A stretch of 22,297 bases of DNA from contig DJIL01000014.1 in the NCBI GenBank assembly GCA_002433595.1, forward strand, positions 1-22,297. Reading direction: 5' to 3'. The first letter of the stretch is position 1. The number at the start of each line of letters is the position of its first letter. Shown here in pieces: positions 259-21,206 of this stretch. The position numbers were made by a program, and so were the translations under genes. This DNA is from a bacterium UBP8_UBA6595 (GTDB taxonomy: Bacteria; Margulisbacteria; Marinamargulisbacteria; UBA6595). A model generated the notes under the pieces. That model saw nothing but the letters and a program-made list of their open reading frames with translations, ran no database searches and had not been told where the DNA came from.

Positions 259-267
259 TGGTAAAAT
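259..267 (+). promoter_or_regulatory. Extended -10 element TGgTAAAAT directly upstream of the permease start, implying a near-leaderless transcript.
   Basis: The sequence tgtggtaaaat ends 9 nt before the ATG at 277. There is no SD in between and no good -35. Confidence 0.25.
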
Positions 268-276
268 AGAGACTCT

Positions 277-1578
277 ATGACCAGCGCAATTAAACTGCAT
301 CGACAATTGGGTGTTTGGGGTGCAGCCATGATGGGGCTGGGCTCTATTTTAGGTACCGGTGTATTTGTAAGCTTGGCCATTGTTGCGGATGTTACCGGCC
401 CGTCGGTTATTTTGGCCTGTGCGATTGCGGCTGTATTGGCGGCCTGCAATGCCATGAGCACGGTTCAATTATCTGTTAGCCACCCCGTGAGTGGGGGGGC
501 TTATGAGTATGCCAGTCGGTATTTAAATGCCCGCGTTGGCTTTGTTGCCGGTTGGTTGTTTTTGTTGGCCAAGGTGGCATCCGCAGCGACGGCGGCTCTG
601 GGATTCGCAACGTATTTTCGAGCGGGGTTTTCAGAAGCCACCACAATGCCGAGTGTTACGACAATTGCCTTAATCACCGTGCTGAGTATGACGGCAATTG
701 CTGCTTTTGGTTTAAAGCAAGCCAATATGGTCAATATTGTCATGGTTTTCATTACGATTGGGTCGTTAGGCTTATTTGTTTTTACCGGGTTTCAGGAAAG
801 TCATGCGCCGATTATGACTAGTCTAACGCCCTTTTTTTCGGGCACAATTACAGAGTTTTTATATGGGGTTGCCTTAGCGTTTGTTGCGTATGCTGGCTAC
901 GGGCGTATTGCAACCCTAGGGGAGGAGGTTCGTTACCCAAAAGAAACGATTCCAAAAGCCATTGGGCTCACCGTGGTAATCAGTGCAGTTTTGTATATTA
1001 CGGTGTCATTGGTAGCCATTAGTCTAACTGGGGGAGAGTTTCATGAAGTTTTGTCACAAAATCCCACAGTGGCACCGTTAATTCACGTGGCGCAAGTGGC
1101 CCAATTGCCATTTAGTCACAGTATTTTGGTAGTTGGCGCCATGACGGCTATGTTGGGGGTATTGCTAAACCTAATTTTAGGATTGTCTCGAACAATATTA
1201 GCAATGGGGAGACGGGGGGATATGCCAGTAAGTTTGACCCGTTTAAATGCCAATAGAACAACACCGTATAGGGCGGTAGTGTTTGTAGGCATTTTGATTC
1301 TAGCGATTACAAGCGTGGGCGATTTAAAATTGGCGTGGACGTTTAGTGCGCTAAATGTATTAATTTATTATTCTATTACCAATCTGGCCGCATTAAAAAT
1401 TAAAGGGTCTGATCGGTTTATTAGCCGGTGGATATCTCGGGTAGGATTTATGGGCTGCTTGTTTTTATCCCTATGGATTGATTCGGATATGTGGCTGTTA
1501 TGTGGGGCTTTATTGGGAACGGGCTTTGTGTTTCGATGGTTGCTTATGACCCCAAGTCGGGTACAGAAAACAAAATAG
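277..1578 (+). CDS. APC-superfamily amino acid/polyamine permease
   Basis: 433-aa ORF with about 12 hydrophobic segments. It has a glycine-rich TM1 (GVWGAAMMGLGSILGTGVFV) and the overall architecture typical of APC transporters. Confidence 0.8.
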   Translation: MTSAIKLHRQLGVWGAAMMGLGSILGTGVFVSLAIVADVTGPSVILACAIAAVLAACNAMSTVQLSVSHPVSGGAYEYASRYLNARVGFVAGWLFLLAKVASAATAALGFATYFRAGFSEATTMPSVTTIALITVLSMTAIAAFGLKQANMVNIVMVFITIGSLGLFVFTGFQESHAPIMTSLTPFFSGTITEFLYGVALAFVAYAGYGRIATLGEEVRYPKETIPKAIGLTVVISAVLYITVSLVAISLTGGEFHEVLSQNPTVAPLIHVAQVAQLPFSHSILVVGAMTAMLGVLLNLILGLSRTILAMGRRGDMPVSLTRLNANRTTPYRAVVFVGILILAITSVGDLKLAWTFSALNVLIYYSITNLAALKIKGSDRFISRWISRVGFMGCLFLSLWIDSDMWLLCGALLGTGFVFRWLLMTPSRVQKTK

Positions 1579-2212
1579 GCAAGTGAGTCTTTGCCTGAAT
1601 AATAGCCATGTTATCGGCAGCAATGGGTGCCGGAGTATCCACTGGTACATGATTAAACACCAGCCCCATAAGGGGCACTTTAGCAGCACGTAGCGCTTGA
1701 ATCGTGAGCAAACTATGATTGATGCATCCCAGCGTATTGCCGATCACAATAACCGTGGGCAAGTTTAGGGCAGACACACAGTCCAATACCGTTTCTGTTG
1801 GCGTTACCGGGACTAGAATGCCGCCAGCACCTTCGCAAATAACTGTATCGAATTGGTTAGCCAGTCGATAAAAAGCTGCGTAAATTTTTTCAGTATGAAT
1901 GGGCGTGTTTTCTAAGTGTGCGGCCAAATGGGGGGATGCCGGATAGGCAAACTGATACGGACAGCAATCGGCTAAATACGGCATGAGGGCGGCGGTACCT
2001 CGTTGCCGAATAACCCAGTGCGTGTTTAAATCCTCTGGAATCGGGGCGGTACAGCCCGTCTGAACCCATTTTTGAGTGATTACTTGCCGTGTTGTTTGCA
2101 AGTGCTTGGCAATTAAGCCGGTAACAACAGTTTTTCCCACGCCGGTATTGGTACCCGTGATAAATAGGTGCTGGGGCCATTCAATCGTGGATGGAAGTGT
2201 AAAGTCAATCAT
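1544..2212 (-). CDS. bioD: Dethiobiotin synthetase
   Basis: P-loop ITGTNTGVGKT and the motifs CEGAGG and GCINH are diagnostic of BioD. Its ATG overlaps the bioC stop by 8 nt. Confidence 0.85.
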   Translation of the reverse strand: MIDFTLPSTIEWPQHLFITGTNTGVGKTVVTGLIAKHLQTTRQVITQKWVQTGCTAPIPEDLNTHWVIRQRGTAALMPYLADCCPYQFAYPASPHLAAHLENTPIHTEKIYAAFYRLANQFDTVICEGAGGILVPVTPTETVLDCVSALNLPTVIVIGNTLGCINHSLLTIQALRAAKVPLMGLVFNHVPVDTPAPIAADNMAIIQAKTHLPILFSVPDLGS

Positions 2213-2927
2213 AATTTCGGATGCTAATTAAAGAGTGTGTTGCCCAAATGCCCCCAAAATGCCGGCAATAGGTTTCGGCTAAGGCAGAGAGTCGTCGAGG
2301 GGTCCACAATCCACGGGCGGTGGCCATTGAGGTGCCAGTATATTTAATTGTTTTGAGTAAGTCTGTGATGGAGGGATAAGCCACCGATAAGCGGGTATGG
2401 TCAATAACAAGCGGGCCAAATTCGGGGCGCAAATCGCGCACATAATCATCGACTGTTCGAAATGGGGTATTCGGTAGGGGCGTCCTTTGGGGCCAACAAA
2501 TACGAAGGGCTTGGTGTAACTCTGTGTAGGTTTCGGGGCCAAACATATGAATATTAAACCCGCCGTGGGGGGCCAGGTTTTTTCGAATAATCGGCGCGAT
2601 TGGGCCCGTTAGCCAGTGAAGGGTTCCGTGGCTACTAATGAAATCGACACGATCAGGGTGTGTGTAGGTTTCGGCAGAGGCAATCTGCCAGCGGATGGGG
2701 GCGGCATACTTTCGAGCCTGGTCAATCATTTGGGACGATTGGTCCACGCCAGTGATGATGCTTTGGGTATAACGGCTGTGTAGTTTGAGTGTATTTACGC
2801 CAGTGCCACAGCCAATATCTAAAATTTGGTCAGGGGCTCTGGTTGGGTATGTAGGCAAAACGCGGGTAAAAAGGGCCTGTTGTGCGGTACTAAACTGGGT
2901 GTATGTAGGGGCGGCTGTGTCAAACAT
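2205..2927 (-). CDS. bioC: Malonyl-ACP O-methyltransferase (class I SAM methyltransferase)
   Basis: SAM motif I (ILDIGCGTG), and it aligns colinearly with BioC (the HGTLHWL and ELHQAL regions). It sits between bioH and bioD. Confidence 0.75.
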   Translation of the reverse strand: MFDTAAPTYTQFSTAQQALFTRVLPTYPTRAPDQILDIGCGTGVNTLKLHSRYTQSIITGVDQSSQMIDQARKYAAPIRWQIASAETYTHPDRVDFISSHGTLHWLTGPIAPIIRKNLAPHGGFNIHMFGPETYTELHQALRICWPQRTPLPNTPFRTVDDYVRDLRPEFGPLVIDHTRLSVAYPSITDLLKTIKYTGTSMATARGLWTPRRLSALAETYCRHFGGIWATHSLISIRNYD

Positions 2928-3570
2928 GGGTATTGCGATGACGGCACAGTTGATGCTGGAAGTCTGTGTTTAGAAAGGGGAAGTGCCCGGTGTTAATCAG
3001 TTGGAGCTCAGTGTTTAGAGCGGCTGCCAACCCGCGTGTCTCTTGAATGGGTGCAATGGCATCGTACTGCCCATGATACAAGGTTAAATTGGGCCACTCA
3101 GCCAATAGGGACGTCTGAAACGATTGGGTGAGTACGGACAGACCGGCTAAAAGGGCCTCTTTGGGCCACATTGCGTGACACTGTGTGTGAAAATAGGTAT
3201 GGAATTGGCGGTATTCCTGGGCATTGTGAAAACAGGTTTGGTGAAAGGTGCTAAGAACAGATTCCGGGTGCTTAGCCATTGTTTTTTGAAAGCGGGTAAT
3301 GCTTTTTTTGGGGTAACAAGGGGCCACGCCAACAAGATAGATGTGGTGTAAGTACGGGGCCAAGTCGGGTAGCCATTGGGATAACATGAGTCCGCCCATC
3401 GAAAAAGCGAGGCAGTCCATAGGGGCGTGCATGCGCGCATACGCTACCCATGGTTCGGGGTCTTGGTGCCAGCTTGATTGGTACCCTACATCGGGTATTC
3501 TGTAACCGGGGGAATACTGAAAGCAGTCGGGAGAAAACCCCCATCCGGGGAGTATTAGCAAGGGCCTCAT
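2920..3570 (-). CDS. bioH: Pimeloyl-ACP methyl ester carboxylesterase (alpha/beta hydrolase, BioH-like)
   Basis: LLILPGWG oxyanion region, nucleophile elbow AFSMGG, and C-terminal LYHGQYD...GHFPF, all BioH-like. I take the ATG at 3570..3568, which forms an ATGA overlap with the bioF stop. The ORF-track start at 3588 is a GTG. Confidence 0.65.
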   Translation of the reverse strand: MRPLLILPGWGFSPDCFQYSPGYRIPDVGYQSSWHQDPEPWVAYARMHAPMDCLAFSMGGLMLSQWLPDLAPYLHHIYLVGVAPCYPKKSITRFQKTMAKHPESVLSTFHQTCFHNAQEYRQFHTYFHTQCHAMWPKEALLAGLSVLTQSFQTSLLAEWPNLTLYHGQYDAIAPIQETRGLAAALNTELQLINTGHFPFLNTDFQHQLCRHRNTHV

Positions 3571-4688
3571 GTCTGTATTGAGTGCCACGCAGTGGCCAGT
3601 TGATCAATATCAGACAGCCGATGATTAGCGCGTAGGCTAATTCGAATTAAATCGGTGTGTTTGGGTACCGTTGGGTGTCGAATGGCTGTAGCAATGATCC
3701 CCTGCTGAGCCAAGGCATGGGTATAAGCAAGCGCTTTTTCAGGACAGCCAACCGGTAATGGGACAATGTGATGCTTAGCGGTCGGGGAACAACCCGTGGG
3801 GAGGGTCGTATGACAATAGCGTGTAAGAGTCGCCAATGCCAGTTGGTGCTGGCTATGGTTTTGGGTAACTGTTGCTAGATTGACCCCAGCAACAAAGGGC
3901 GGTAAGGCTGTTGAGTAAATAAACGGTCGGCATCGATTAATGAGGTAGTCGCGTAGCTCAGGCGAACCGCCAATAAAGGCGCCCATACTTCCCCAAGCTT
4001 TGCCAAAGGTTCCAATGATAATATCAACAGCATCCAAAATATGGTGTGCGTCAGCGAGCCCCATGCCGGACGGGCCGTAGCAACCCACCGCGTGGGCTTC
4101 GTCCACAATCAATTGGGCCTTGGCATCGCATTTAAGTTGAATTAATCGCTCAAAGTTGCACGAAGCCCCCGTCATGCTGAATAAGGATTCGGTGACAATG
4201 AATAATCGATTGTAGTTTGCACGGTGCTTCTGAATTAAATACCCTAAATGATCATAATCAGTATGCCGATAGCGTTTAAACGTAGCGGCGGATAGCCGAG
4301 CGCCGTCAATTAGGCTGGCATGACAGGCACGATCTGCTAAAATCAAATCAGAACGCTGAGGGAGGCATCCCAATAGGCCAGTATTGGCATGGTAGCCAGA
4401 GTTTACCACTAATGCAGACTTGCCCAGACGTATAGAGAGGGCCGATTCTAAATCGCATAGCGTGGGGTATTGCCCACTTAATAACCGAGAGCCAGTGGCC
4501 CCTGCGCCATAATGGTTGGCGGCAGCTAACCCTGCTTGAATGCGGGAGTAATCCGTTGTTAATCCTAGATAGTCGTTGGTATTAAAGACAATTAATGACG
4601 CATCAGAGCCGGAGACTTGATCGGGAAGTGTGCGGTATGAATGGGTGTCTTTAAGTTTAGATAGCGTATGATTTAAAAAGCGATCCAA
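3567..4688 (-). CDS. bioF: 8-amino-7-oxononanoate synthase (PLP-dependent)
   Basis: Colinear with BioF/AONS family proteins (NDYLGL, FSMTG, and the TFGKA PLP-lysine region). The only possible start is the TTG at 4688..4686, 3 nt after the ftsZ stop. Confidence 0.85.
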   Translation of the reverse strand: MDRFLNHTLSKLKDTHSYRTLPDQVSGSDASLIVFNTNDYLGLTTDYSRIQAGLAAANHYGAGATGSRLLSGQYPTLCDLESALSIRLGKSALVVNSGYHANTGLLGCLPQRSDLILADRACHASLIDGARLSAATFKRYRHTDYDHLGYLIQKHRANYNRLFIVTESLFSMTGASCNFERLIQLKCDAKAQLIVDEAHAVGCYGPSGMGLADAHHILDAVDIIIGTFGKAWGSMGAFIGGSPELRDYLINRCRPFIYSTALPPFVAGVNLATVTQNHSQHQLALATLTRYCHTTLPTGCSPTAKHHIVPLPVGCPEKALAYTHALAQQGIIATAIRHPTVPKHTDLIRISLRANHRLSDIDQLATAWHSIQT

Positions 4689-4691
4689 GAC

Positions 4692-5978
4692 TTACTTGCG
4701 TAAAAAAGCAGGGAATTCCAAATCATCGCTTAAAGAATCAGATACAATATCTGCGTCCTCGGGTCGGGGACGGTTAATAGCGTATTGAACGGGCGGCCGC
4801 TCAACGGGTGGTTGAGGGGAGGCAGGCGATTCCGTGAATTGAGGCTTTGATCCGGACGATTCTACAGAATAGGGGGTGCCAATAGATGATGCATTAGGCT
4901 CAGGTTCTAAGAGAGACGGGGGGGCTGGCATGGGGGCAGCCGTTGAAGCGGTCACCGTTTCAGCCGTAGGCTTGTCTTCCAAGTGGTCACGGGGTATAGA
5001 GGTTCGAGACGCGGGCTGGTGCTTATCGGGCTTAAACCCAGTCGCGATGACGGTTACAATTAAATGATCTTCAGCGTTTTTATCAATAACGGATCCGAAT
5101 ACAATATTAGCATTGGACTGATCAACCGCTTCATAGATAGTTTGGGCGGCTTGATCAACCTCATGTAAACTCATGGTCTCACTACCGGTTATATTAATAA
5201 TAACGCCACTAGCCCCAGTAATTGTTTCTTCAAGTAGTGGCGAAGAAATGGCTTGCTCAGCGGCTTCAATAGCCCGGTTTTCGCCACTGGCTTTTCCAAT
5301 ACCCATCATGGCAGATCCAGAGTCAGACATAATCGTGCGAACATCGGCAAAGTCTAAATTGATTAAACCTGGAATTGTAATTAAATCAGCGATCCCTTGA
5401 ACCCCTTGGCGCAGAACATCATCGGCCATTTTAAACGCATCGATTAATGTTGTCATTTTTTCTGTAATTTTAAGTAACTGGTCGTTGGGAATGACAATTA
5501 AGGCATCAAGCTCATCACGAAGTGACTGCACACCGTATTCAGATTGCTGCAATCGAACAGGCCCTTCAAATCGAAATGGCTTAGTGACAACGCCAATAGT
5601 CAAGGCACCGGCTTCTTTAGCAATTTTGGCAATCATAGGGGAAGCCCCAGTCCCGGTTCCACCCCCCATTCCAGCAGTAATGAACACCATATCGGCACCT
5701 TCAATGGCCATTTTGATATCGTCTTTACTTTCTTGGGCAGATTGCTCCCCCATTTGAGCTTGAGCCCCACAGCCAAGCCCTTTTGTTATCTTGGTTCCTA
5801 ACTGCAATTTATGATCAGATAAGCTAGTGTTTAATGCCTGAAGATCGGTGTTCATTACCCAAAACTCAACCCCTGTAAGATTGGACGCAATCATTCGATT
5901 GACTGCGTTTGTACCACCACCACCAACACCAATAACTTTTATGTTTGCATATTTATTTAACGAATCATTCGCATTCAT
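4692..5978 (-). CDS. ftsZ: Cell division GTPase FtsZ
   Basis: IKVIGVGGGGTNAVNRM, the tubulin signature GGGTGTG, a long Pro/Ser-rich linker and the conserved C-terminal peptide DDLEFPAFLRK. Confidence 0.95.
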   Translation of the reverse strand: MNANDSLNKYANIKVIGVGGGGTNAVNRMIASNLTGVEFWVMNTDLQALNTSLSDHKLQLGTKITKGLGCGAQAQMGEQSAQESKDDIKMAIEGADMVFITAGMGGGTGTGASPMIAKIAKEAGALTIGVVTKPFRFEGPVRLQQSEYGVQSLRDELDALIVIPNDQLLKITEKMTTLIDAFKMADDVLRQGVQGIADLITIPGLINLDFADVRTIMSDSGSAMMGIGKASGENRAIEAAEQAISSPLLEETITGASGVIINITGSETMSLHEVDQAAQTIYEAVDQSNANIVFGSVIDKNAEDHLIVTVIATGFKPDKHQPASRTSIPRDHLEDKPTAETVTASTAAPMPAPPSLLEPEPNASSIGTPYSVESSGSKPQFTESPASPQPPVERPPVQYAINRPRPEDADIVSDSLSDDLEFPAFLRK

Positions 5979-6026
5979 TTCATGAAACAGTTTAGCATAC
6001 TCACTTGCCGAATGCTAGGTATTGAT

Positions 6027-6056
6027 TTGACAATACGCGTGTTCGTTTTGTACGAT
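6027..6056 (+). promoter_or_regulatory. Candidate sigma70 promoter (TTGACA-N18-TACGAT) for the lipoprotein gene, within the ftsZ/lipoprotein divergent region.
   Basis: TTGACA at 6027..6032 and TACGAT at 6051..6056. The spacer is 18 nt and the ATG is at 6076. Confidence 0.3.
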
Positions 6057-6075
6057 TTCCAATACGGATTCTTGC

Positions 6076-6468
6076 ATGGTTCATAAAATTTACATTGTAG
6101 TTTTGGTTTCTTTAGTCCTAACGGGGTGTGCCGGTCGATCCGCCATGCATCGCGAATCGACAGTGGCCGGCCGTGCGTTGCCTAAGCCCGTAATGCATCA
6201 AATGATTCACAAGCATGTTAAAGAAGGAACCACACAGCGTGCAGATATAGTGGCTACTTTTGGATACCCCAGCAGCACGTTTCAATCGGAACGTGGGCGA
6301 ACTGTTTGGTACTACCCAGGTATGGGGTACCACGCTAATGCCAAAAAAAGACACTTTAAACTGCATCAGGCCACCGATCCTCAGGCCGTCGATCTGGTGA
6401 TCATCTACGGGGATGATTCGTTTGAAAACACCGTGGCTCAGGTGCGGATAATGCCCGCACACTTATAG
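6076..6468 (+). CDS. Small outer-membrane lipoprotein, BamE (SmpA/OmlA)-like
   Basis: Lipoprotein signal peptide with lipobox LVLTGC. A G-T-x-x-x-V-x-x-x-G-P...W-Y-Y pattern (KEGTTQRADIVATFGYPSS...TVWYY) resembles the BamE fold motif. Confidence 0.45.
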   Translation: MVHKIYIVVLVSLVLTGCAGRSAMHRESTVAGRALPKPVMHQMIHKHVKEGTTQRADIVATFGYPSSTFQSERGRTVWYYPGMGYHANAKKRHFKLHQATDPQAVDLVIIYGDDSFENTVAQVRIMPAHL

Positions 6469-10885: not shown

Positions 10886-11392
10886 TCAGTGGCTATTGCG
10901 CACACGCCGCATACAATAGTGTACCAGGGTTGCGCTGCCGATGACAGTCTCAAGTGACGGAGAATCGGGGCGGTCGGGCATTGGGACCGGCATGGATTCT
11001 GTGTGATTGGCATAGCTAACGCCAATATAGAAGCATCGGTTAGTAGTGTTGTAGTCGCTGAGTGCTAGCCCCAAGGATGTGGCATACACATGCCGGAGCT
11101 GCTTCGCTAAATACTGAGTGAACGGTTCACTGGAGGTTCCGTGCTCGCGAATAATTTGAGGTGACAGGCCCAAGGGGCGAATCAGCACGCTGGGGTGATG
11201 AATGGTCGTTGTGGCAGCCATGTGACGGGGTAAGTGGTGAGACATCCAGTAGCTAAATAAGCCATGGGCACCGATATCGGCAAGGCTAACCGTGAGCCCT
11301 ACAAAGTCTGCGGCGAGCTGATCCACAAGTGTTTCCGTTTGCTTAGCTTGAATTTCTGTTAAAATTGATTCAAATGCGTGCAAATTACGCAA
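10886..11392 (-). CDS. CinA C-terminal domain/PncC-like protein (divergent)
   Basis: Colinear with the CinA C-domain/PncC, including GLxxxWxS and REHGTSSEP (compare the conserved AQHGAVSEP region). The conserved ESCTGG block is replaced by LADIGAHG. It has a TTG start, lies 6 nt after the metK stop, and sits immediately upstream of recA as pncC does in E. coli. Confidence 0.55.
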   Translation of the reverse strand: MRNLHAFESILTEIQAKQTETLVDQLAADFVGLTVSLADIGAHGLFSYWMSHHLPRHMAATTTIHHPSVLIRPLGLSPQIIREHGTSSEPFTQYLAKQLRHVYATSLGLALSDYNTTNRCFYIGVSYANHTESMPVPMPDRPDSPSLETVIGSATLVHYCMRRVRNSH

Positions 11393-12553: not shown

Positions 12554-12819
12554 AAGCGACTGCTCTCCTTTTTAATTGTTTAAACACGAACTATTTATTT
12601 TAAATCTAATTTTAATTATATCAGATATACTGAAATGATCAAAAAATTAACCGGTTTATGCCTTTGAATCAACTGTCAGGGATAGGCAGGCTATAGTACC
12701 GGCCATAGTCGTAGAGCCCCCCAAACTGCCAGTCAACAAAATGGTGGATATGTCGCTTTGGTTGAAGGGGGGTTAAACGGGGTGACAGCAGGTGGGATTT
12801 CCGATATGATTAGTAGCCT

Positions 12820-16501: not shown

Positions 16502-17644
16502 ATGAAGTACATCGTCTGTCTAGGTGACGGTATGTCTGACTGGCCCATTGAGGGTTTAGGGAACCAAACACCCTTAGCGTATGCTAAAACACCCAACATG
16601 GATGCGTTGGCAGCCCAAGGTCGTGTGGGGGTAGTGGATACGGTTGAGGCCCCATTTTACCCAGGCTCGGATGTGGCGAATATGGGTATTTTAGGGTACG
16701 ATCCTGCGGAATCTTACACAGGTCGTGCGGCAATTGAATCCGCAGCTATGGGTGTTGATATTCCCAACGGCTACAGTGCATTTCGATGCAATTTAGTCAC
16801 AATAAGCAATGAGACAATGGTTAGCTTTACAGCGCATCATATTGAAACGGCTGCGGCTGCGCGGGTTTTGGATGCCTTAAACCAACACTTTGATGGCCGG
16901 GTGCAGTTTTATGTGGGGGCCAGTTATCGGCATATTGCGGTAATGCCGGGTGCCTATCCCGATATTGTTTGCACACCTCCGCATGATTTAACAGACAAAC
17001 CGGTGGTGGGTCCATCTGAGGGGGGGGCAGCTGTTATCCAAGCCCTAATGACTGAGGCTCAAGCGGTTGTTCAGTCAGTGGGTACAGGGGCAACAGATAT
17101 TTGGCTGTGGAGTCCGGGCACGGCGGTCAATCTGCCGACGTTTCACGTGAAACATGGCTTGACCGGGGGTGTGGTATCCGCCGTGGACGTTGTGAAAGGG
17201 TTGGGCTGTTTAATGGGTATGCACGTGCCAGATGTGCCGGGGGCAACGGGGTTTTTAGATACAAATTATGCAGGAAAATGGGCCGCTGCAACGGCTATCT
17301 TAGAAACCAGTGATTTTGTTTATGTGCATGTGGAGGCCCCGGATGAATGCGGGCATTTGGGCGATGTTGACAAAAAGGTACAAGCGATTGAAGACTTTGA
17401 TGCACATATCATAGGGCCTGCTCGGGCGTATTTAAAGGCCAATCCGGATACAAGGATCATGGTGCTTCCAGATCACGCAACCCCGTGTGCGATTAAGACC
17501 CATTCGCGAGAAGCCGTTCCGGTGGTGCTGGCCGGTCTGGGTATTGCATCCAATGGGGCAACGAAGTATTCGGAGGCTGTGGCGGTTCAAACGGATTGGC
17601 ATGAAACGACGCCCTGGGCATTGTTTAAACAGCTGATTTGTTAA
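16502..17644 (+). CDS. ApgM-family (cofactor-independent phosphoglycerate mutase-like, alkaline-phosphatase superfamily) protein; proposed non-orthologous homoserine kinase
   Basis: The N-terminus CLGDGMSDWP...TPNMD and overall colinearity match the archaeal-type iPGM/'proposed homoserine kinase' family, which commonly sits next to thrC. Here it starts 2 nt after the thrC stop. Confidence 0.65.
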   Translation: MKYIVCLGDGMSDWPIEGLGNQTPLAYAKTPNMDALAAQGRVGVVDTVEAPFYPGSDVANMGILGYDPAESYTGRAAIESAAMGVDIPNGYSAFRCNLVTISNETMVSFTAHHIETAAAARVLDALNQHFDGRVQFYVGASYRHIAVMPGAYPDIVCTPPHDLTDKPVVGPSEGGAAVIQALMTEAQAVVQSVGTGATDIWLWSPGTAVNLPTFHVKHGLTGGVVSAVDVVKGLGCLMGMHVPDVPGATGFLDTNYAGKWAAATAILETSDFVYVHVEAPDECGHLGDVDKKVQAIEDFDAHIIGPARAYLKANPDTRIMVLPDHATPCAIKTHSREAVPVVLAGLGIASNGATKYSEAVAVQTDWHETTPWALFKQLIC

Positions 17645-17674
17645 TTGTGAGTTTTATAGCCTATTTGGTATACT
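17645..17674 (+). promoter_or_regulatory. Candidate sigma70 promoter TTGTGA-N18-TATACT at the head of the phosphonate cassette.
   Basis: -35 at 17645..17650 and -10 at 17669..17674. This 62-bp gap is the only intergenic space between thrC/apgM and licD. Confidence 0.35.
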
Positions 17675-17706
17675 AAGTATATGAAAAAAACTGATAAAGC
17701 GTATAC

Positions 17707-18465
17707 ATGCTGCCAATAATGATGCGCGCTCGGTTTTCTGACATTCGGAAATCATTTTTGCCTCATACAGCAGATCAAATTAAGCCTGTTTCTCATATGG
17801 CGCATACGCCCGATGAATGGTTGGTCCGGTTTCATGCTATTTTAATGCGAGCGGGTGTTCAGCTAACCCCTTTGTATGGCACCTGTTTGGGATTTTTTCG
17901 AGATAATTGCATTATTCCAGGAGATACCGATGCGGATTTTGGAATTGCCCTCTCGGACTTGCCAGCGGTTCGAGCGTGTGTTCCGGAGTTGCTGGCAGCC
18001 GGTTTTTATATTTCCGGTCGGGGGAATTATCAACTCACGTTTAGCATGCCCAACAGCTCATTTTATATTGATATTTGGCCATACAAGGCCTTGAATTTCC
18101 CCCTAACGATGCTGGGGCACCGATGGCTCTGTGATCATGTGTATTACAAAGCTGATTTTTTTTCAGAGTGTCAGCCGTTTAATTACAATGGCTGTACGTA
18201 TTATTTGCCCGCACGGTGTGAGATGTATTTGGAAATGGTATATGGATTAGACTGGAGAACCCCGGTTTCTGGGTGTTTTTCAGGACCTAGAGGCTTAATA
18301 TCCCAATGGATTAATTGGCCATTTATTGATTTTCCGGTGCCATCTGCCTTTTCAGGGGAAGCCCATTTGGGCACCTACAAACCCTGGGCATCTAAACTAT
18401 TAAAAAGAGTAGTTCCCAATGCTCGTATTACACAATTGTTCAAACATCCGGAGGTTAAATCATGA
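17707..18465 (+). CDS. LicD-family phosphotransferase (transfers phospho-/phosphono-alcohols from CDP/CMP donors to glycans)
   Basis: Colinear with the LicD/fukutin family: [11 protein letters not shown]...[11 protein letters not shown] (compare GTLLGAVRH...IPWDDDIDI), YIDIWPY, and a C-terminal YL...[13 protein letters not shown]. The stop overlaps the ppm ATG (ATGA). Confidence 0.7.
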
Positions 18466-20072
18466 ATTTACAAGCAACCACAACAAAACAGCGAAAAACC
18501 ACGCAATTGCGTGCCTTATTTCAACGCTCAGAGTTAGCGTTTTTGATGGAGGCCCATAATGGTTTGTCGGCACGATTGGTCGAAGAAACAGGGTTTTCGG
18601 GCATTTGGGCCAGTGGATTAGCCATTTCAGCGAGCATGGGCGTTCGAGATAACAATGAAGCGTCCTGGACTCAGGTGGTGGATACGTTAGAATTTATGAG
18701 TGATGCCACTTCAATTCCTATTTTATTGGATGGGGATACAGGGTATGGTAATTTTAACAATGTTCGTCGGTTAATTAAAAAGCTGGAACAACGCGACATT
18801 GCGGGCGTGTGTTTAGAAGATAAATTGTTTCCAAAAACCAACTCGTTTTTAAATGGTGAGCAGCAAGAGCTGGCCGATGTGTCGGAGTTTTGCGGTAAAA
18901 TAAAAGCGGCTAAAGACACGCAATCAGACCCCGATTTTTCAGTTGTAGCCCGCATTGAATCGTTTATTGTGGGCATGGGTTTAAATGAGGCATTGGATCG
19001 AGCGTATGCGTACGCCAATGCCGGTGCCGATGCCATTTTGGTTCACAGCAAAAAAGCGGTGCCTGATGATATTGTGGCGTTCATGCAGGCGTGGGATTCG
19101 CCGGTTCCGATTGTTATTGTGCCAACCAAGTACTATGCAACACCGACGGATCAGTTTCGTACCATGGGAATCTCCACGGTAATTTGGGCTAACCACAGCA
19201 TTCGGTCCGCTATGACTGCCATGAAAACAACAATGAAAACTATTTATGATACAGAAACGCTTAAAGATGTCGAACCTAAGATTAGTTCGGTATCGGATAT
19301 TTTTCGGATTCAAGGAGCCGATGAACTAGCGGAGGCCGAAACCCAATATTTGCCGGGTTACAATACCCAACTAGCGGGCATTATTTTAGCGGCAGGTCCC
19401 TCACGTATTGACGGGTTTTCAGGGCCCAAAAGCATGCTTTTAGTTCATGGGAGATCAATTTTAGATCATCAAGTGGATCATTTGGAGCGGTTTGGCATTG
19501 GTCATGTAACCGTGGTGCGTGGGCATGATAAAGCGCAGATGGTATCGGATCGGGTGTCATTTGTGGATAATGATGCATACGCAACAACGTCAGAGGTTTA
19601 CTCATTGGCATTGCTTGCGGATCAGTTGGACACTGCCGCCGTCATTAGTTATGGGGACGTGGTATATAAGCATTATTTTATTCACGAATGTTTAGCTCAT
19701 TCAGGGGATGTCGTTATTGTGGTGGATGTGAACTGCCCCGCGACAGACTCTTGGCGAGACTACGTTCAAGCGAGCGAGGCTTTTGATGCGTTACGCATTC
19801 AGCAATCGCCTACCCTGATTCAAATGGCTCGTTCTATAAGTGCCGATCAAATTTCGGGTGAGTTTGTGGGGCTGATGAAAACAACCAAAACGGGCAGTCG
19901 TGCCATTCAAGCCGCCCTCAGATCTATCGAGTCATCCACCTTAGCCCGTATGACAATGCCTGAGTTTTTAACGGCCTTAAGCCAGACGATTCCGGTGCAT
20001 ATTGTGTATGTTCAAGGGGGATGGGTGGATGTGAATACCCTATCCGATTGGACGGCAGCGGCTGACGTTTAA
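18462..20072 (+). CDS. ppm: Phosphoenolpyruvate mutase fused to a C-terminal LicC-like nucleotidyltransferase domain
   Basis: The N-terminal domain is colinear with PEP mutase and carries the diagnostic EDKx5NS motif ([10 protein letters not shown], nt 18816..18845). The C-terminal domain, from about nt 19368, is nucleotidyltransferase-fold ([10 protein letters not shown]..., [13 protein letters not shown], and a C-terminal [10 protein letters not shown]). A GGAGG SD is 8 nt upstream. Confidence 0.85.
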
Positions 20073-21206
20073 ATGATTTCAGCGCATGCATTTTGCCACG
20101 CATTAGCTGGCCGGGGATTTGATTGCTATACGGGTGTTCCGTGTTCGTTTTTGACCGGTGTTATTAATGTTGCCATGGCGGAATATACCTATATTAACGC
20201 CACCAATGAAGGCGATGCTGTTGCGATTGCCGTGGGCGCGGCTTTGTCAGGCAAGCGACCGGTTGTGCTCATGCAAAACTCTGGTTTGGGCAATGCGGTA
20301 TCACCCCTAACGTCATTAACGCACCCATTTGGTGTACCGGTTCTAACGGTAATTAGTTGGCGGGGGCAGCCAGGTATTCAAGATGAGCCCCAGCATGCAC
20401 TTATGGGGGTCATTACCCCCGATATGGCCCAGTTAATGGGTATGGAAACGATTATTTTTTCCGCGTCCGACTTGCCGGATCAGCTGAATGCGATTGATGC
20501 GGCTTTGGGTCGTGGGCAATCCGTGGCCTGGGTGATTCCGAAGGGGGAGATTGAACCCGTTAAAACTCCGGGTCGGTCCCAGCCGGTACCTCATTCAGGG
20601 GCTATCCAGACCCAATCCGCGCACCCAGGGGTGGTGGGAAGCCGAACCGATGCGTTGAAAACCATTGTAGCGGCGCAACCACCCCACAGTGCGGTGTTGG
20701 CAACCACCGGCAAAACGGGGCGGGAATTATTCACATTAGGGGATCGGGATAATCAGGTCTATCAAGTGGGGTCTATGGGGTGCATAGGGGCGCTGGGTTT
20801 GGGTATTGCGTTGGCCAAGCCGGCATGTCGGGTAATCGTCATTGATGGCGATGGTGCGGCCTTAATGCGGTTGGGATCGTGGGCATCCGTGGGATACTAT
20901 AAGCCCAAGGGGTTCTTGCATATTGTCTTAGATAATGGGGTGCATGATTCAACCGGAGGCCAAGATACGGTGGCGGAGTCTGTTGATTTTGTGGCTTGTG
21001 CACAGGCCATGGGGTATCCGGTGTCAAGGACTGTAGCCAGTTTGGATGAATTGGCTGATCAGATTCAGCAGTGGGCCGCTGAGCCTCAATTAACACTGCT
21101 GCATGTCGCAATTACGCCGGGGAGCCCGGCAACGTTGGGACGACCCACGTGTACACCCGCCGAGGTTGCGGCGCGATTCAAACACTATTTGGCCAACGGG
21201 TTATGA
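20073..21206 (+). CDS. ppd: Phosphonopyruvate decarboxylase (ThDP-dependent)
   Basis: About 375 aa, the typical Ppd size, with ThDP motif GDG...N (VIVIDGDGAALM...LDNGVHDSTGGQ). The ATG immediately follows the ppm stop. Confidence 0.85.
   Translation: MISAHAFCHALAGRGFDCYTGVPCSFLTGVINVAMAEYTYINATNEGDAVAIAVGAALSGKRPVVLMQNSGLGNAVSPLTSLTHPFGVPVLTVISWRGQPGIQDEPQHALMGVITPDMAQLMGMETIIFSASDLPDQLNAIDAALGRGQSVAWVIPKGEIEPVKTPGRSQPVPHSGAIQTQSAHPGVVGSRTDALKTIVAAQPPHSAVLATTGKTGRELFTLGDRDNQVYQVGSMGCIGALGLGIALAKPACRVIVIDGDGAALMRLGSWASVGYYKPKGFLHIVLDNGVHDSTGGQDTVAESVDFVACAQAMGYPVSRTVASLDELADQIQQWAAEPQLTLLHVAITPGSPATLGRPTCTPAEVAARFKHYLANGL

What the first reader, a model, noticed from the sequence alone, without database searches (positions are those of the whole stretch)
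3567..6075. Orphan ftsZ outside any dcw cluster, apparently heading a ftsZ-bioFHCD transcription unit
ftsZ is a full-length gene with a long disordered linker and a canonical C-terminal DDLEFPAFLRK peptide, which is the anchor-binding motif for FtsA/ZipA-type proteins. No ftsA or ftsQ lies upstream. Instead a divergent BamE-like lipoprotein gene sits 97 bp away. The ftsZ stop is followed 3 nt later by the only possible start of bioF, a TTG, and bioF-bioH-bioC-bioD are coupled by ATGA or 8-nt overlaps. Linking a cell-division gene to biotin synthesis is unusual. bioA and bioB are not in the window.
Basis: seen in the sequence. Interest (0 to 1): 0.55.

Follow-up and report, generated by a model that had tools for sequence, protein, structure and literature searches.

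The report
Relocated ftsZ–biotin gene operon
In this marine Margulisbacteria genome the cell-division gene ftsZ and four biotin-synthesis genes form one tightly packed unit; this is the broken-off tail of the usual cell-division gene cluster, so it is an evolutionary curiosity, not a new system.

Summary
On the minus strand lie ftsZ (4692-5978), then TAA-GTC-TTG, then bioF, an α/β-hydrolase, bioC and bioD, joined by 4- or 8-nt overlaps. A lipoprotein gene diverges 97 bp upstream. Ten independent assemblies show the same order, so this is not an assembly error.

The organism is a marine Candidatus Marinamargulisbacteria. In four other lineages of that class the order is murC-murB-ddl-ftsQ-ftsA-ftsZ-bioF…. 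All seven Marinamargulisbacteria ftsZ loci examined have bioF downstream. The ftsZ–bio link is therefore ancestral: the bio genes sit at the tail of the dcw cluster. Here, and independently in one other lineage, the chromosome broke between ftsA and ftsZ.

The "missing" genes exist. A murC-murB-ddl-ftsQ-ftsA contig ending right after ftsA occurs in the same four samples. It has the same nucleotide signature, and a conspecific MAG carries both genes.

Every lineage has an extended -10 motif just upstream of ftsZ, which explains why the block could move. No conserved promoter motif lies inside ftsZ. None of the five genes has a Shine-Dalgarno sequence.

The most likely mechanism is co-transcription from the ftsZ promoter with bioF translated by termination–reinitiation. 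This is inferred, not shown. It is a new variant of a known kind, of modest interest.

The parts
5989..5997 (-). Extended -10-type promoter motif TGCTAAACT, 10 nt upstream of the ftsZ ATG. It is the candidate promoter of the whole unit and implies a very short or absent leader.
   Evidence: The same 9-mer sits 7 nt before the start in sibling L011. A TGnTAnnnT motif lies within 102 nt upstream of ftsZ in 8 of 8 lineages. Background is about 1 per 970 nt per strand; the joint chance is about 1e-9. No Shine-Dalgarno sequence is present. Function is inferred, not shown.
5979..6075 (.). 97-bp divergent intergenic region between ftsZ and the lipoprotein gene. It holds a sigma-70-like site (TTGACA-18-TACGAT, 6027-6056, + strand) facing the lipoprotein gene.
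4692..5978 (-). ftsZ, 428 aa: GTPase core, variable linker of about 100 aa (about 4728-5030), and C-terminal peptide DDLEFPAFLRK (4695-4727).
   Evidence: TIGR00065 at 413.5 bits (cutoff 295.2); PF00091 and PF12327. Alignment with nine relatives.
4686..4694 (-). ftsZ/bioF junction TAA-GTC-TTG: stop, 3-nt spacer, weak start codon, same reading frame, no Shine-Dalgarno sequence. Proposed termination-reinitiation site.
   Evidence: The 3-nt spacer is conserved in L011 (TAA ACC TTG), L013 (TAA CGA TTG) and L018 (TAA GCC ATG).
4663..4730 (-). Predicted RNA hairpin pairing the ftsZ C-terminal-peptide codons with bioF codons 4-9, enclosing the stop/start junction. Weak evidence.
   Evidence: -25.9 kcal/mol, z = -1.84, 10 of 200 shuffles as good. 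L011 has an enclosing hairpin in a different register (z = -2.32). L013, L018 and L014 are not significant.
3567..4688 (-). bioF-like 8-amino-7-oxononanoate synthase (α-oxoamine synthase family), 373 aa, TTG start.
   Evidence: TIGR00858 is the best family at 332 bits, below its cutoff of 426. PF00155. PDB relatives are BioF, serine palmitoyltransferase and Kbl. The PLP-lysine motif TFGKA is present in the sequence.
2920..3570 (-). α/β-hydrolase of 216 aa in the BioH position; candidate pimeloyl-ACP methyl ester esterase. ATGA overlap with bioF.
   Evidence: Only sub-threshold Pfam hits: Hydrolase_4, Abhydrolase_1 and Abhydrolase_6. No NCBIfam hit. One weak PDB hydrolase hit. The L018 ortholog is a clear α/β-hydrolase. 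FSMGG, YDAI and GHFPF motifs are seen in the sequence.
2205..2927 (-). bioC-like SAM methyltransferase, 240 aa; 8-nt overlap with the hydrolase gene.
   Evidence: TIGR02072 is the best family at 110.8 bits, below its cutoff of 185. Methyltransf_25/11/12 domains.
1544..2212 (-). bioD, dethiobiotin synthase, 222 aa; 8-nt overlap with bioC. Last gene of the unit.
   Evidence: TIGR00347 at 147.7 bits (cutoff 83.3); PF13500.
277..1578 (+). Convergent amino-acid permease gene overlapping the bioD 3' end by 35 nt. It marks the end of the unit.
6076..6468 (+). Divergent 130-aa lipoprotein gene (signal peptide plus LTGC lipobox), family unknown. It marks the new upstream neighbour acquired after the rearrangement.
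   Evidence: Conserved at the same place in sibling L011.

Best explanation
**What it is.** This is the detached distal end of the division/cell-wall (dcw) cluster of a marine Candidatus Marinamargulisbacteria.

**Origin.** In the ancestor of the class the order was murC-murB-ddl-ftsQ-ftsA-ftsZ-bioF-esterase-bioC-bioD(-bioA). In this lineage the chromosome broke in the short ftsA-ftsZ spacer.
- murC-murB-ddl-ftsQ-ftsA stayed behind.
- ftsZ moved next to lptG and a lipoprotein gene. It took its own proximal extended -10 promoter and the bio genes with it.

**How it works (inferred).**
1. One mRNA starts a few nucleotides upstream of the ftsZ ATG, with a short or absent leader and no Shine-Dalgarno sequence.
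2. Ribosomes finishing ftsZ at TAA restart 3 nt later at the weak TTG of bioF.
3. They then restart at the ATGA and 8-nt overlaps of the next three genes.
4. Biotin enzymes would thus be made as a small, fixed fraction of the abundant FtsZ, with no separate promoter, operator or ribosome-binding site.

**FtsZ function.** FtsZ function is unchanged. Its C-terminal peptide still has FtsA, which is encoded elsewhere.

**Shown versus inferred.** Shown: gene identities, junction anatomy, conservation of the layout, the ancestral arrangement, and the presence of ftsQ/ftsA in the same organism. Inferred: the promoter, co-transcription, reinitiation and the expression ratio.
For: **Organism.** The closest named FtsZ proteins are from Ca. 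Marinamargulisbacteria, and a conspecific MAG is so named.

**Ancestral layout.**
- L013, L015/L027, L016 and L018 have murC-murB-ddl-ftsQ-ftsA-ftsZ followed by bioF. In L018 only the segment from ddl onward was read, and there bioA follows bioD.
- All seven Marinamargulisbacteria ftsZ loci examined have bioF downstream.
- An FtsZ neighbour-joining tree nests the window clade inside lineages that have ftsA-ftsZ-bioF. It also makes L014 (dnaA<>ftsZ-bioF) sister to L013 (ftsA-ftsZ-bioF), which implies two independent breaks at ftsA|ftsZ.

**The remnant locus (L028-L033).** It reads murC-murB-ddl-ftsQ-ftsA followed by a convergent gene, with no ftsZ or bioF remnant. Four lines tie it to the window organism:
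- It occurs in the same four samples as the window's contigs.
- Its tetranucleotide correlation with the window is r = 0.956, against 0.5-0.77 for other lineages.
- Its FtsA is closest to that of L013 (42.6% identity), as its FtsZ is.
- One MAG carries both proteins, 201 accession numbers apart: MDG2264772 and MDG2264973.

**Promoter.** TGnTAnnnT lies upstream of ftsZ in 8 of 8 lineages.

**No separate bio promoter.**
- The spacer is 3 nt.
- The only sense-strand extended -10 motif inside ftsZ (5112-5104) is lost in sibling L011. L011, L014 and L018 have none in the 3' half.
- Synonymous conservation does not rise at the 3' end.
- No sigma-70-like site lies in the last ~740 nt of ftsZ.

**Translational coupling.**
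- No Shine-Dalgarno sequence precedes any of the five genes, while metK, recA and the band-7 gene have one.
- The relative with a 64-nt spacer (L015) has AAGGAG plus ATG instead.
- Experiments show that reinitiation needs overlaps or very short spacers, and is almost abolished by about 20 nt (PMC10666635; PMC6728339).
Against: - There are no RNA data. Co-transcription, the start site and reinitiation are all inferred.
- The classical -35/-10 scan found no ftsZ promoter in the 97-bp region.
- The extended -10 motif is short, and intergenic DNA is more AT-rich than the background used for its chance estimate.
- One sense-strand TGCTAATAT lies inside ftsZ, 421 nt before the ftsZ stop and so about 420 nt upstream of bioF. 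It could be a lineage-specific internal promoter.
- The link between the ftsA contig and the window rests on co-occurrence, composition and accession numbering, not on a closed genome.
- The tree is a single-gene neighbour-joining tree without support values.
- BioF, BioC and the esterase score below the curated family cutoffs.
- bioA and bioB were not located for this organism.
Confidence: 0.7

Rival explanations
1. The bio genes are an independent transcription unit driven by a promoter embedded in the ftsZ coding sequence. ftsZ and the bio genes are merely packed together, and bioF uses its TTG by direct initiation.
For: One sense-strand extended -10-like motif (TGCTAATAT, 5112-5104) lies inside ftsZ about 420 nt upstream of bioF. 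A sigma-70-like site lies at 5456-5428. Internal promoters in dcw clusters are well known in model bacteria (own knowledge).
Against: - The 5112 motif is broken in the closest sibling L011.
- L011, L014 and L018 have no such motif in the 3' half of ftsZ.
- The number of motifs in ftsZ equals the chance expectation.
- Synonymous sites at the ftsZ 3' end are not unusually conserved.
- bioF has no Shine-Dalgarno sequence and a TTG start, which is poor for independent initiation.
Confidence: 0.2
2. The ftsZ-bio linkage is kept by selection because it couples division to biotin-dependent lipid synthesis. Biotin is needed for acetyl-CoA carboxylase, and BioC/BioH use the fatty-acid synthesis pathway. 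It would therefore be a regulatory design rather than an inherited neighbourhood.
For: The linkage survived in 7 of 7 lineages and through two independent rearrangements that separated ftsZ from ftsA. The exact 3-nt spacing is kept in four deep lineages while the spacer sequence varies.
Against: - Retention is explained more simply. A 3-nt junction offers no breakpoint that would leave bioF expressed, whereas the ftsA-ftsZ spacer carries a promoter.
- One lineage tolerates an SLH gene between ftsZ and bioF (L016), and another a 64-nt spacer with its own Shine-Dalgarno sequence (L015).
- A non-marine relative has no such link.
- bioA and bioB are not kept with the block.
Confidence: 0.08
3. The junction is an assembly or binning artefact, or ftsZ and bioF are fused by stop-codon read-through into one protein (they share a reading frame).
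For: ftsZ and bioF are in the same frame and are separated only by TAA GTC.
Against: - Ten independent assemblies are colinear at 99.8-99.96% identity.
- Relatives have 4-nt or 64-nt spacers, or an intervening gene, so frame identity is not conserved.
- A fusion would bury the C-terminal peptide that is conserved in all lineages.
Confidence: 0.02

Closest known systems
Distal end of the Escherichia coli dcw cluster (ftsQ-ftsA-ftsZ-lpxC/envA)
   Same: A metabolic, non-division gene lies directly downstream of ftsZ at the tail of the cluster. ftsZ has proximal promoters of its own inside or after the upstream genes (own knowledge). The Marinamargulisbacteria relatives L013, L015, L016 and L018 show the same ftsQ-ftsA-ftsZ-metabolic-gene logic.
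   Different: Here the downstream genes are for biotin synthesis, not lipid A synthesis. They are joined to ftsZ by 3 nt with no room for their own promoter. In this genome ftsZ has also been cut away from ftsA.
ftsZ lying outside the full dcw cluster in other phyla, for example Cyanobacteria, the sister group of Margulisbacteria
   Same: ftsZ functions away from the mur and fts genes under its own promoter (own knowledge).
   Different: Cyanobacteria lack FtsA and use other anchors (own knowledge). This organism keeps a normal FtsA with SHS2 and FtsA domains next to ftsQ and the mur genes.
E. coli-type bio operon (bioBFCD with the BirA operator bioO)
   Same: The same enzymatic steps are encoded: BioC methyltransferase, esterase, BioF, BioD.
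   Different: There is no noncoding DNA upstream of bioF, so there is no dedicated operator or promoter. bioA and bioB are not in the block. The esterase is not a recognisable BioH-family member. No palindromic operator was found in the ftsZ upstream region beyond a 9-nt AATACGCGT palindrome.
Translationally coupled gene pairs using termination-reinitiation (PMC6728339, PMC10666635)
   Same: Stop and start lie within a few nucleotides of each other. The downstream gene has no Shine-Dalgarno sequence. A chain of ATGA and 8-nt overlaps follows.
   Different: Such pairs are enriched for subunits of one complex. Here a cytoskeletal protein is coupled to unrelated enzymes through a +3 spacer and a TTG start, which should give a large step down in output.

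Membership tests
FtsZ (TIGR00065; PF00091 + PF12327) | Profile score above the curated cutoff | tested here: met
   413.5 bits against a cutoff of 295.2. Tubulin and FtsZ_C domains are present.
FtsZ (TIGR00065; PF00091 + PF12327) | GTP-binding signature GGGTGTG, T7 loop NxDxxD, and conserved C-terminal anchor-binding peptide | tested here: met
   GMGGGTGTG, NLDFADV and DDLEFPAFLRK are seen in the sequence and are invariant or nearly so among 10 relatives.
dcw cluster (…ftsQ-ftsA-ftsZ) | ftsZ directly downstream of ftsQ/ftsA and the mur genes | tested here: not met
   In the window the upstream neighbour is a divergent lipoprotein gene. The criterion is met in relatives L013, L015, L016, L018 and L027.
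dcw cluster (…ftsQ-ftsA-ftsZ) | ftsQ, ftsA and the mur genes are present in the same genome | tested here: met
   L028-L033 carry murC-murB-ddl-ftsQ-ftsA. They come from the same four samples, have tetranucleotide r = 0.956 with the window, and one MAG holds both proteins in the same accession block. This is inferred co-residence, not a closed genome.
BioF, 8-amino-7-oxononanoate synthase (TIGR00858) | Profile score above the curated cutoff | tested here: not met
   332 bits against a cutoff of 426, although it is the best-scoring family (the next is serine palmitoyltransferase at 240 bits). PDB relatives are a mixture of BioF, SPT and Kbl.
BioF, 8-amino-7-oxononanoate synthase (TIGR00858) | PLP-lysine motif and genomic context with bioC/bioD (and bioA) | tested here: met
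   TFGKA and DEAH motifs are in the sequence. bioC and bioD are adjacent. bioA follows in L018.
BioH-type pimeloyl-ACP methyl ester esterase | Match to a BioH (or BioG) family profile | tested here: not met
   No NCBIfam hit. Pfam gives only sub-threshold general α/β-hydrolase matches at E ≤ 10, with no BioG-family (DUF452) match. The role is inferred from position only.
BioC, malonyl-ACP O-methyltransferase (TIGR02072) | Profile score above the curated cutoff | tested here: not met
   110.8 bits against a cutoff of 184.95. It is the best-scoring family and the match covers the full length.
BioD, dethiobiotin synthase (TIGR00347) | Profile score above the curated cutoff | tested here: met
   147.7 bits against a cutoff of 83.3.
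BamE (SmpA/OmlA) lipoprotein | Sequence or fold match to BamE | tested here: inconclusive
   No Pfam, NCBIfam or PDB sequence match. The AlphaFold single-sequence model has pLDDT 41.7 and is unusable. Only the lipobox is certain.
Termination-reinitiation coupled gene pair | Stop and start overlapping or within a few nucleotides, with the downstream gene lacking its own Shine-Dalgarno sequence | tested here: met
   The spacings are +3, -4, -8 and -8 nt, and no Shine-Dalgarno-like sequence lies within 22 nt upstream of any of the genes.
Termination-reinitiation coupled gene pair | Downstream translation depends on upstream translation | not testable with these tools
   This needs reporter fusions with premature stop codons in ftsZ.

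The most novel reading that the evidence does not exclude
The whole five-gene unit is read from a leaderless or near-leaderless mRNA with a single ribosome entry at the ftsZ start. Every downstream bio gene is then translated only by ribosomes handed on from ftsZ. Biotin-enzyme output would be hard-wired to FtsZ synthesis, and so to the division cycle. This dependence would be why ftsZ-bioF has stayed together through repeated rearrangements across the Marinamargulisbacteria.
Probability: 0.25. Interest if true: 0.45.

Novelty: new variant of a known kind. Interest (0 to 1): 0.3.

Why it matters
The result shows how a core division gene can leave the dcw cluster without loss of function. It carries its own proximal promoter, and its partner FtsA stays encoded elsewhere.

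It also gives a clear natural example of how genome compaction welds unrelated genes into one expression unit. That unit then behaves as a single block in later rearrangements.

For annotators of Margulisbacteria genomes there are two practical points. An isolated ftsZ does not mean an FtsA-less division machinery. The bio genes also lack any dedicated regulatory region.

The result does not reveal a new molecular system.

Tried and rejected
**Searching for FtsA with the word-indexed protein search.**
- The best hits belonged to other lineages: P0246 = L018, P0247 = a freshwater lineage, P0244 = a 35%-GC lineage with ftsA-trkH, and P0241 = the L015 group.
- The search was also lossy: a query-alignment member (P0123) was missing from the hit list, so an absent hit meant nothing.

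**Genome-collection scan.**
- The scan with P0247 found only a Lake Zurich MAG.

**What solved it.** The exhaustive representative search plus the cluster-member look-up found the FtsA of the window organism.

**Promoter and RNA structure.**
- The classical sigma-70 -35/-10 scan found no ftsZ promoter and no excess of terminators.
- The junction hairpin is modestly better than shuffles in the window and L011, but not in L013, L018 or L014. It is kept only as a weak hint.

**BamE assignment of the lipoprotein.** There was no sequence support, and the structure model was too poor to search with.

**Rearrangement by recombination between paralogs.** I asked whether the 165-aa gene after ftsA (L028) and the 168-aa gene in the window are paralogs. 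They show no similarity.

**Literature.** Searches found no earlier description of a ftsZ-bio linkage or of division genes in Marinamargulisbacteria.


Full report
**1. What is in the sequence**

All genes in the finding lie on the minus strand.

- ftsZ is at 4692-5978 (428 aa, ATG start). It is an unambiguous FtsZ, scoring 413.5 bits against TIGR00065 (cutoff 295.2) and matching the Tubulin and FtsZ_C domains.
- It has the GGGTGTG and NLDFADV motifs, a variable linker of about 100 residues and the C-terminal peptide DDLEFPAFLRK.
- The stop TAA (4694-4692) is followed by GTC and then TTG (4688-4686), the start of a 373-aa α-oxoamine synthase. Its best family is BioF (TIGR00858, 332 bits, below the cutoff of 426).
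- The next in-frame start codon is codon 94, so TTG is the only workable start.
- Three more genes follow:
  - a 216-aa α/β-hydrolase (2920-3570, ATGA overlap);
  - a BioC-like methyltransferase (2205-2927, 8-nt overlap);
  - BioD (1544-2212, 8-nt overlap; TIGR00347 above its cutoff).
- A convergent permease gene overlaps the bioD end by 35 nt.
- A 130-aa lipoprotein gene diverges 97 bp upstream of ftsZ.
- The window holds no ftsA, ftsQ, bioA or bioB.

The window is colinear and 99.8-99.96% identical to ten independently assembled contigs from different samples and assemblers. The junction at 4690 is therefore not an assembly error.

Two labels are not supported:
- 'BamE-like': no sequence match, and the structure model was unusable.
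- 'BioH': only weak general hydrolase matches.

**2. Whose genome it is**

The identical FtsZ is found in two NCBI MAGs and many Tara Oceans assemblies. A ≥90%-identical cluster member is annotated Candidatus Marinamargulisbacteria. The closest named homologs are from Marinamargulisbacteria single-cell genomes. This class is a marine branch of Margulisbacteria, a sibling lineage of Cyanobacteria (PMC6349859). That paper does not mention ftsZ, cell division or biotin.

**3. Synteny in relatives**

FtsZ identity to the window is given where it was measured.

| Locus | FtsZ identity | Gene order |
|---|---|---|
| L011/L012 | 80% | same layout as the window |
| L013 | 67% | murC-murB-ddl-ftsQ-ftsA-ftsZ-(3 nt)-bioF-hydrolase-bioC-bioD-rsmG |
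| L018 | 58% | ddl-ftsQ-ftsA-ftsZ-(3 nt)-bioF-hydrolase-bioC-bioD-bioA-secG-bamA |
| L015/L027 | 58% | murC…ftsA-ftsZ-(64 nt)-bioF |
| L016 | 60% | murC…ftsA-ftsZ-SLH gene-bioF |
| L014 | 62% | dnaA<>ftsZ-(4 nt)-bioF…hydrolase-bioC |
| L017 (non-marine Margulisbacteria) | 68% over 79% of the query | neither ftsA nor bio genes next to ftsZ |

- All seven Marinamargulisbacteria ftsZ loci have bioF downstream. In four of them ftsA is directly upstream.
- A neighbour-joining tree of the FtsZ core nests the window clade inside the lineages that have ftsA-ftsZ-bioF.
- The same tree places L014 as sister to L013. The ftsA|ftsZ link was therefore broken at least twice independently, while ftsZ|bioF held (single gene, no support values).

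**4. Where ftsA went**

Word-indexed searches failed to find it. An exhaustive profile search gave further FtsA representatives, and a cluster look-up then gave two results:
- The window's FtsZ cluster contains MDG2264973.1.
- One FtsA cluster contains MDG2264772.1. Both are labelled Ca. Marinamargulisbacteria and lie 201 accession numbers apart, which points to one MAG.

The FtsA member P0474 lies on contigs reading tgt<>murC-murB-ddl-ftsQ-ftsA. These are followed at once by a convergent gene that overlaps the ftsA end (L028-L033). Several lines tie these contigs to the window organism:
- They come from the same four samples as the window's ftsZ contigs: ERZ23491136, ERZ909128, ERZ27286416 and ERZ2774237.
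- GC content is 0.474 against 0.477.
- Tetranucleotide correlation with the window is r = 0.956, against 0.5-0.77 for other lineages.
- Their FtsA is closest to that of L013 (42.6% identity), mirroring FtsZ.
- The protein has FtsA and SHS2 domains above the Pfam cutoffs.
- No ftsZ or bioF remnant follows ftsA.

ftsZ is therefore 'orphan' only in position. FtsQ and FtsA are retained at the truncated end of the dcw cluster.

**5. Expression signals**

*Promoter upstream of ftsZ.*
- The -35/-10 scan finds nothing for ftsZ in the 97-bp region.
- An extended -10 motif (TGnTAnnnT) lies upstream of ftsZ in 8 of 8 lineages, including those with ftsA upstream:
  - TGCTAAACT, 10 nt before the ATG in the window (5997-5989) and 7 nt before the start in L011;
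  - TGATATAAT at 14 nt in L018;
  - TGTTATGAT at 48 nt in L013 and 63 nt in L015;
  - TGGTATGAT at 93 nt in L016;
  - TGGTAAAGT at 41 nt in L014;
  - TGGTATAGT at 38 nt in L017.
- The motif occurs about once per 970 nt per strand in the window, at chance level overall. The joint chance of finding it in all eight upstream regions is about 1e-9. This estimate is optimistic, because intergenic DNA is AT-richer than the background and some lineages are related.
- A portable proximal promoter explains why ftsZ could be moved.
- In the window its closeness to the ATG, together with the lack of a Shine-Dalgarno sequence, suggests a very short or absent leader. The permease gene has the same layout, whereas metK, recA and the band-7 gene have AAGGA(G).

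*No sign of a promoter inside ftsZ.*
- The only sense-strand extended -10 motif (5112-5104) is destroyed by a synonymous change in sibling L011.
- L011, L014 and L018 have none in the 3' half of ftsZ.
- Identity at synonymous sites between the window and L011 is lower at the 3' end (0.35-0.40) than in most of the core (0.34-0.68, mostly 0.45-0.65).

*Translation.*
- None of the five genes has a Shine-Dalgarno sequence.
- The relative with a 64-nt ftsZ-bioF spacer has AAGGAG plus ATG instead.
- The 3-nt spacer is kept in four deep lineages, with variable spacer sequence (GTC, ACC, CGA, GCC) and TTG in three of them.
- A hairpin enclosing the junction is modestly better than shuffles in the window (z = -1.84) and L011 (z = -2.32), but not elsewhere.

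**6. Most likely mechanism**

- One transcript starts just upstream of ftsZ and runs to bioD.
- Ribosomes terminating at the ftsZ TAA reinitiate at TTG three nucleotides on, and again at each overlap.
- Published reporter work shows that such coupling needs overlaps or very short spacers, and is almost abolished by about 20 nt (PMC10666635; PMC6728339).
- A weak start codon after an abundant protein's gene would give the low enzyme levels that biotin synthesis needs. That last step rests on my own reasoning.
- The repeated survival of ftsZ-bioF is most simply explained by the absence of any breakpoint there that would leave bioF expressed.

**7. Comparison with the known, and verdict**

- A metabolic gene following ftsZ at the dcw tail has a classic precedent in E. 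coli ftsZ-lpxC (own knowledge).
- ftsZ outside the dcw cluster is common in other phyla.
- Tight coupling by overlaps is general.
- New here are the partners (biotin genes), the 3-nt TTG junction conserved across a class, and the documented break that left ftsQ-ftsA behind.

This is a new variant of known gene organisation, not a new system. Interest is modest. The main open points are the transcription start, proof of coupling, and the whereabouts of bioA and bioB.

Noticed in passing
window 16502-21206 (+): Likely phosphonate-biosynthesis cluster. It holds a PEP mutase fused to a MobA-like nucleotidyltransferase (18462-20072) and a TPP enzyme resembling phosphonopyruvate decarboxylase (20073-21206). 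These are preceded by a cofactor-independent phosphoglycerate-mutase-like metalloenzyme (16502-17644) and a 252-aa protein with no family match.
   Followed up: partly
window 259-267 (+) and 12615-12623 (-): The permease gene has TGGTAAAAT 9 nt before its ATG and no Shine-Dalgarno sequence, the same near-leaderless layout as ftsZ. metK has TGATATAAT 61 nt upstream plus an AAGGAG Shine-Dalgarno sequence. Both mRNA styles seem to be used in this genome.
   Followed up: partly
window 1544-1596: bioD and the convergent permease gene overlap by 35 nt. A hairpin plus T-run on the minus strand (1596-1567) lies inside the last 20 codons of bioD, ending about 20 nt before its stop. That is an odd place for a terminator.
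   Followed up: no
window 10886-11392 (-): A 165-168-aa ORF between metK and recA has only a weak CinA-domain hit (E = 0.0023). It may be a degenerate cinA in the classic position upstream of recA.
   Followed up: no
L001 18347-21287: Just beyond the window's left end, the same contigs encode a giant protein (3,470 aa called) with ankyrin repeats and a SecA DEAD-like motor domain.
   Followed up: no
L014 6025-8000: In another Marinamargulisbacteria lineage, ftsZ-bioF lies divergent to dnaA across a 635-nt spacer. ftsZ may therefore sit next to the replication origin there.
   Followed up: no
L024-L026 and L021-L023: Two further lineages have ftsQ-ftsA not followed by ftsZ. One (35% GC) has ftsA overlapping trkH-trkA. 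The other, a freshwater lineage (Lake Zurich MAG), has a very divergent FtsA followed by a 525-aa protein of unknown function. Where their ftsZ lies is unknown.
   Followed up: partly
L016 9230-9568: A 112-aa SLH-domain gene is inserted between ftsZ and bioF in one lineage. A bioB-like radical-SAM gene lies about 7 kb downstream.
   Followed up: no
L028 8325-9014: The 229-aa protein in the FtsQ position of the window organism has no Pfam match at all, although its counterparts in relatives give weak POTRA_1 or FtsQ_DivIB_C hits.
   Followed up: no
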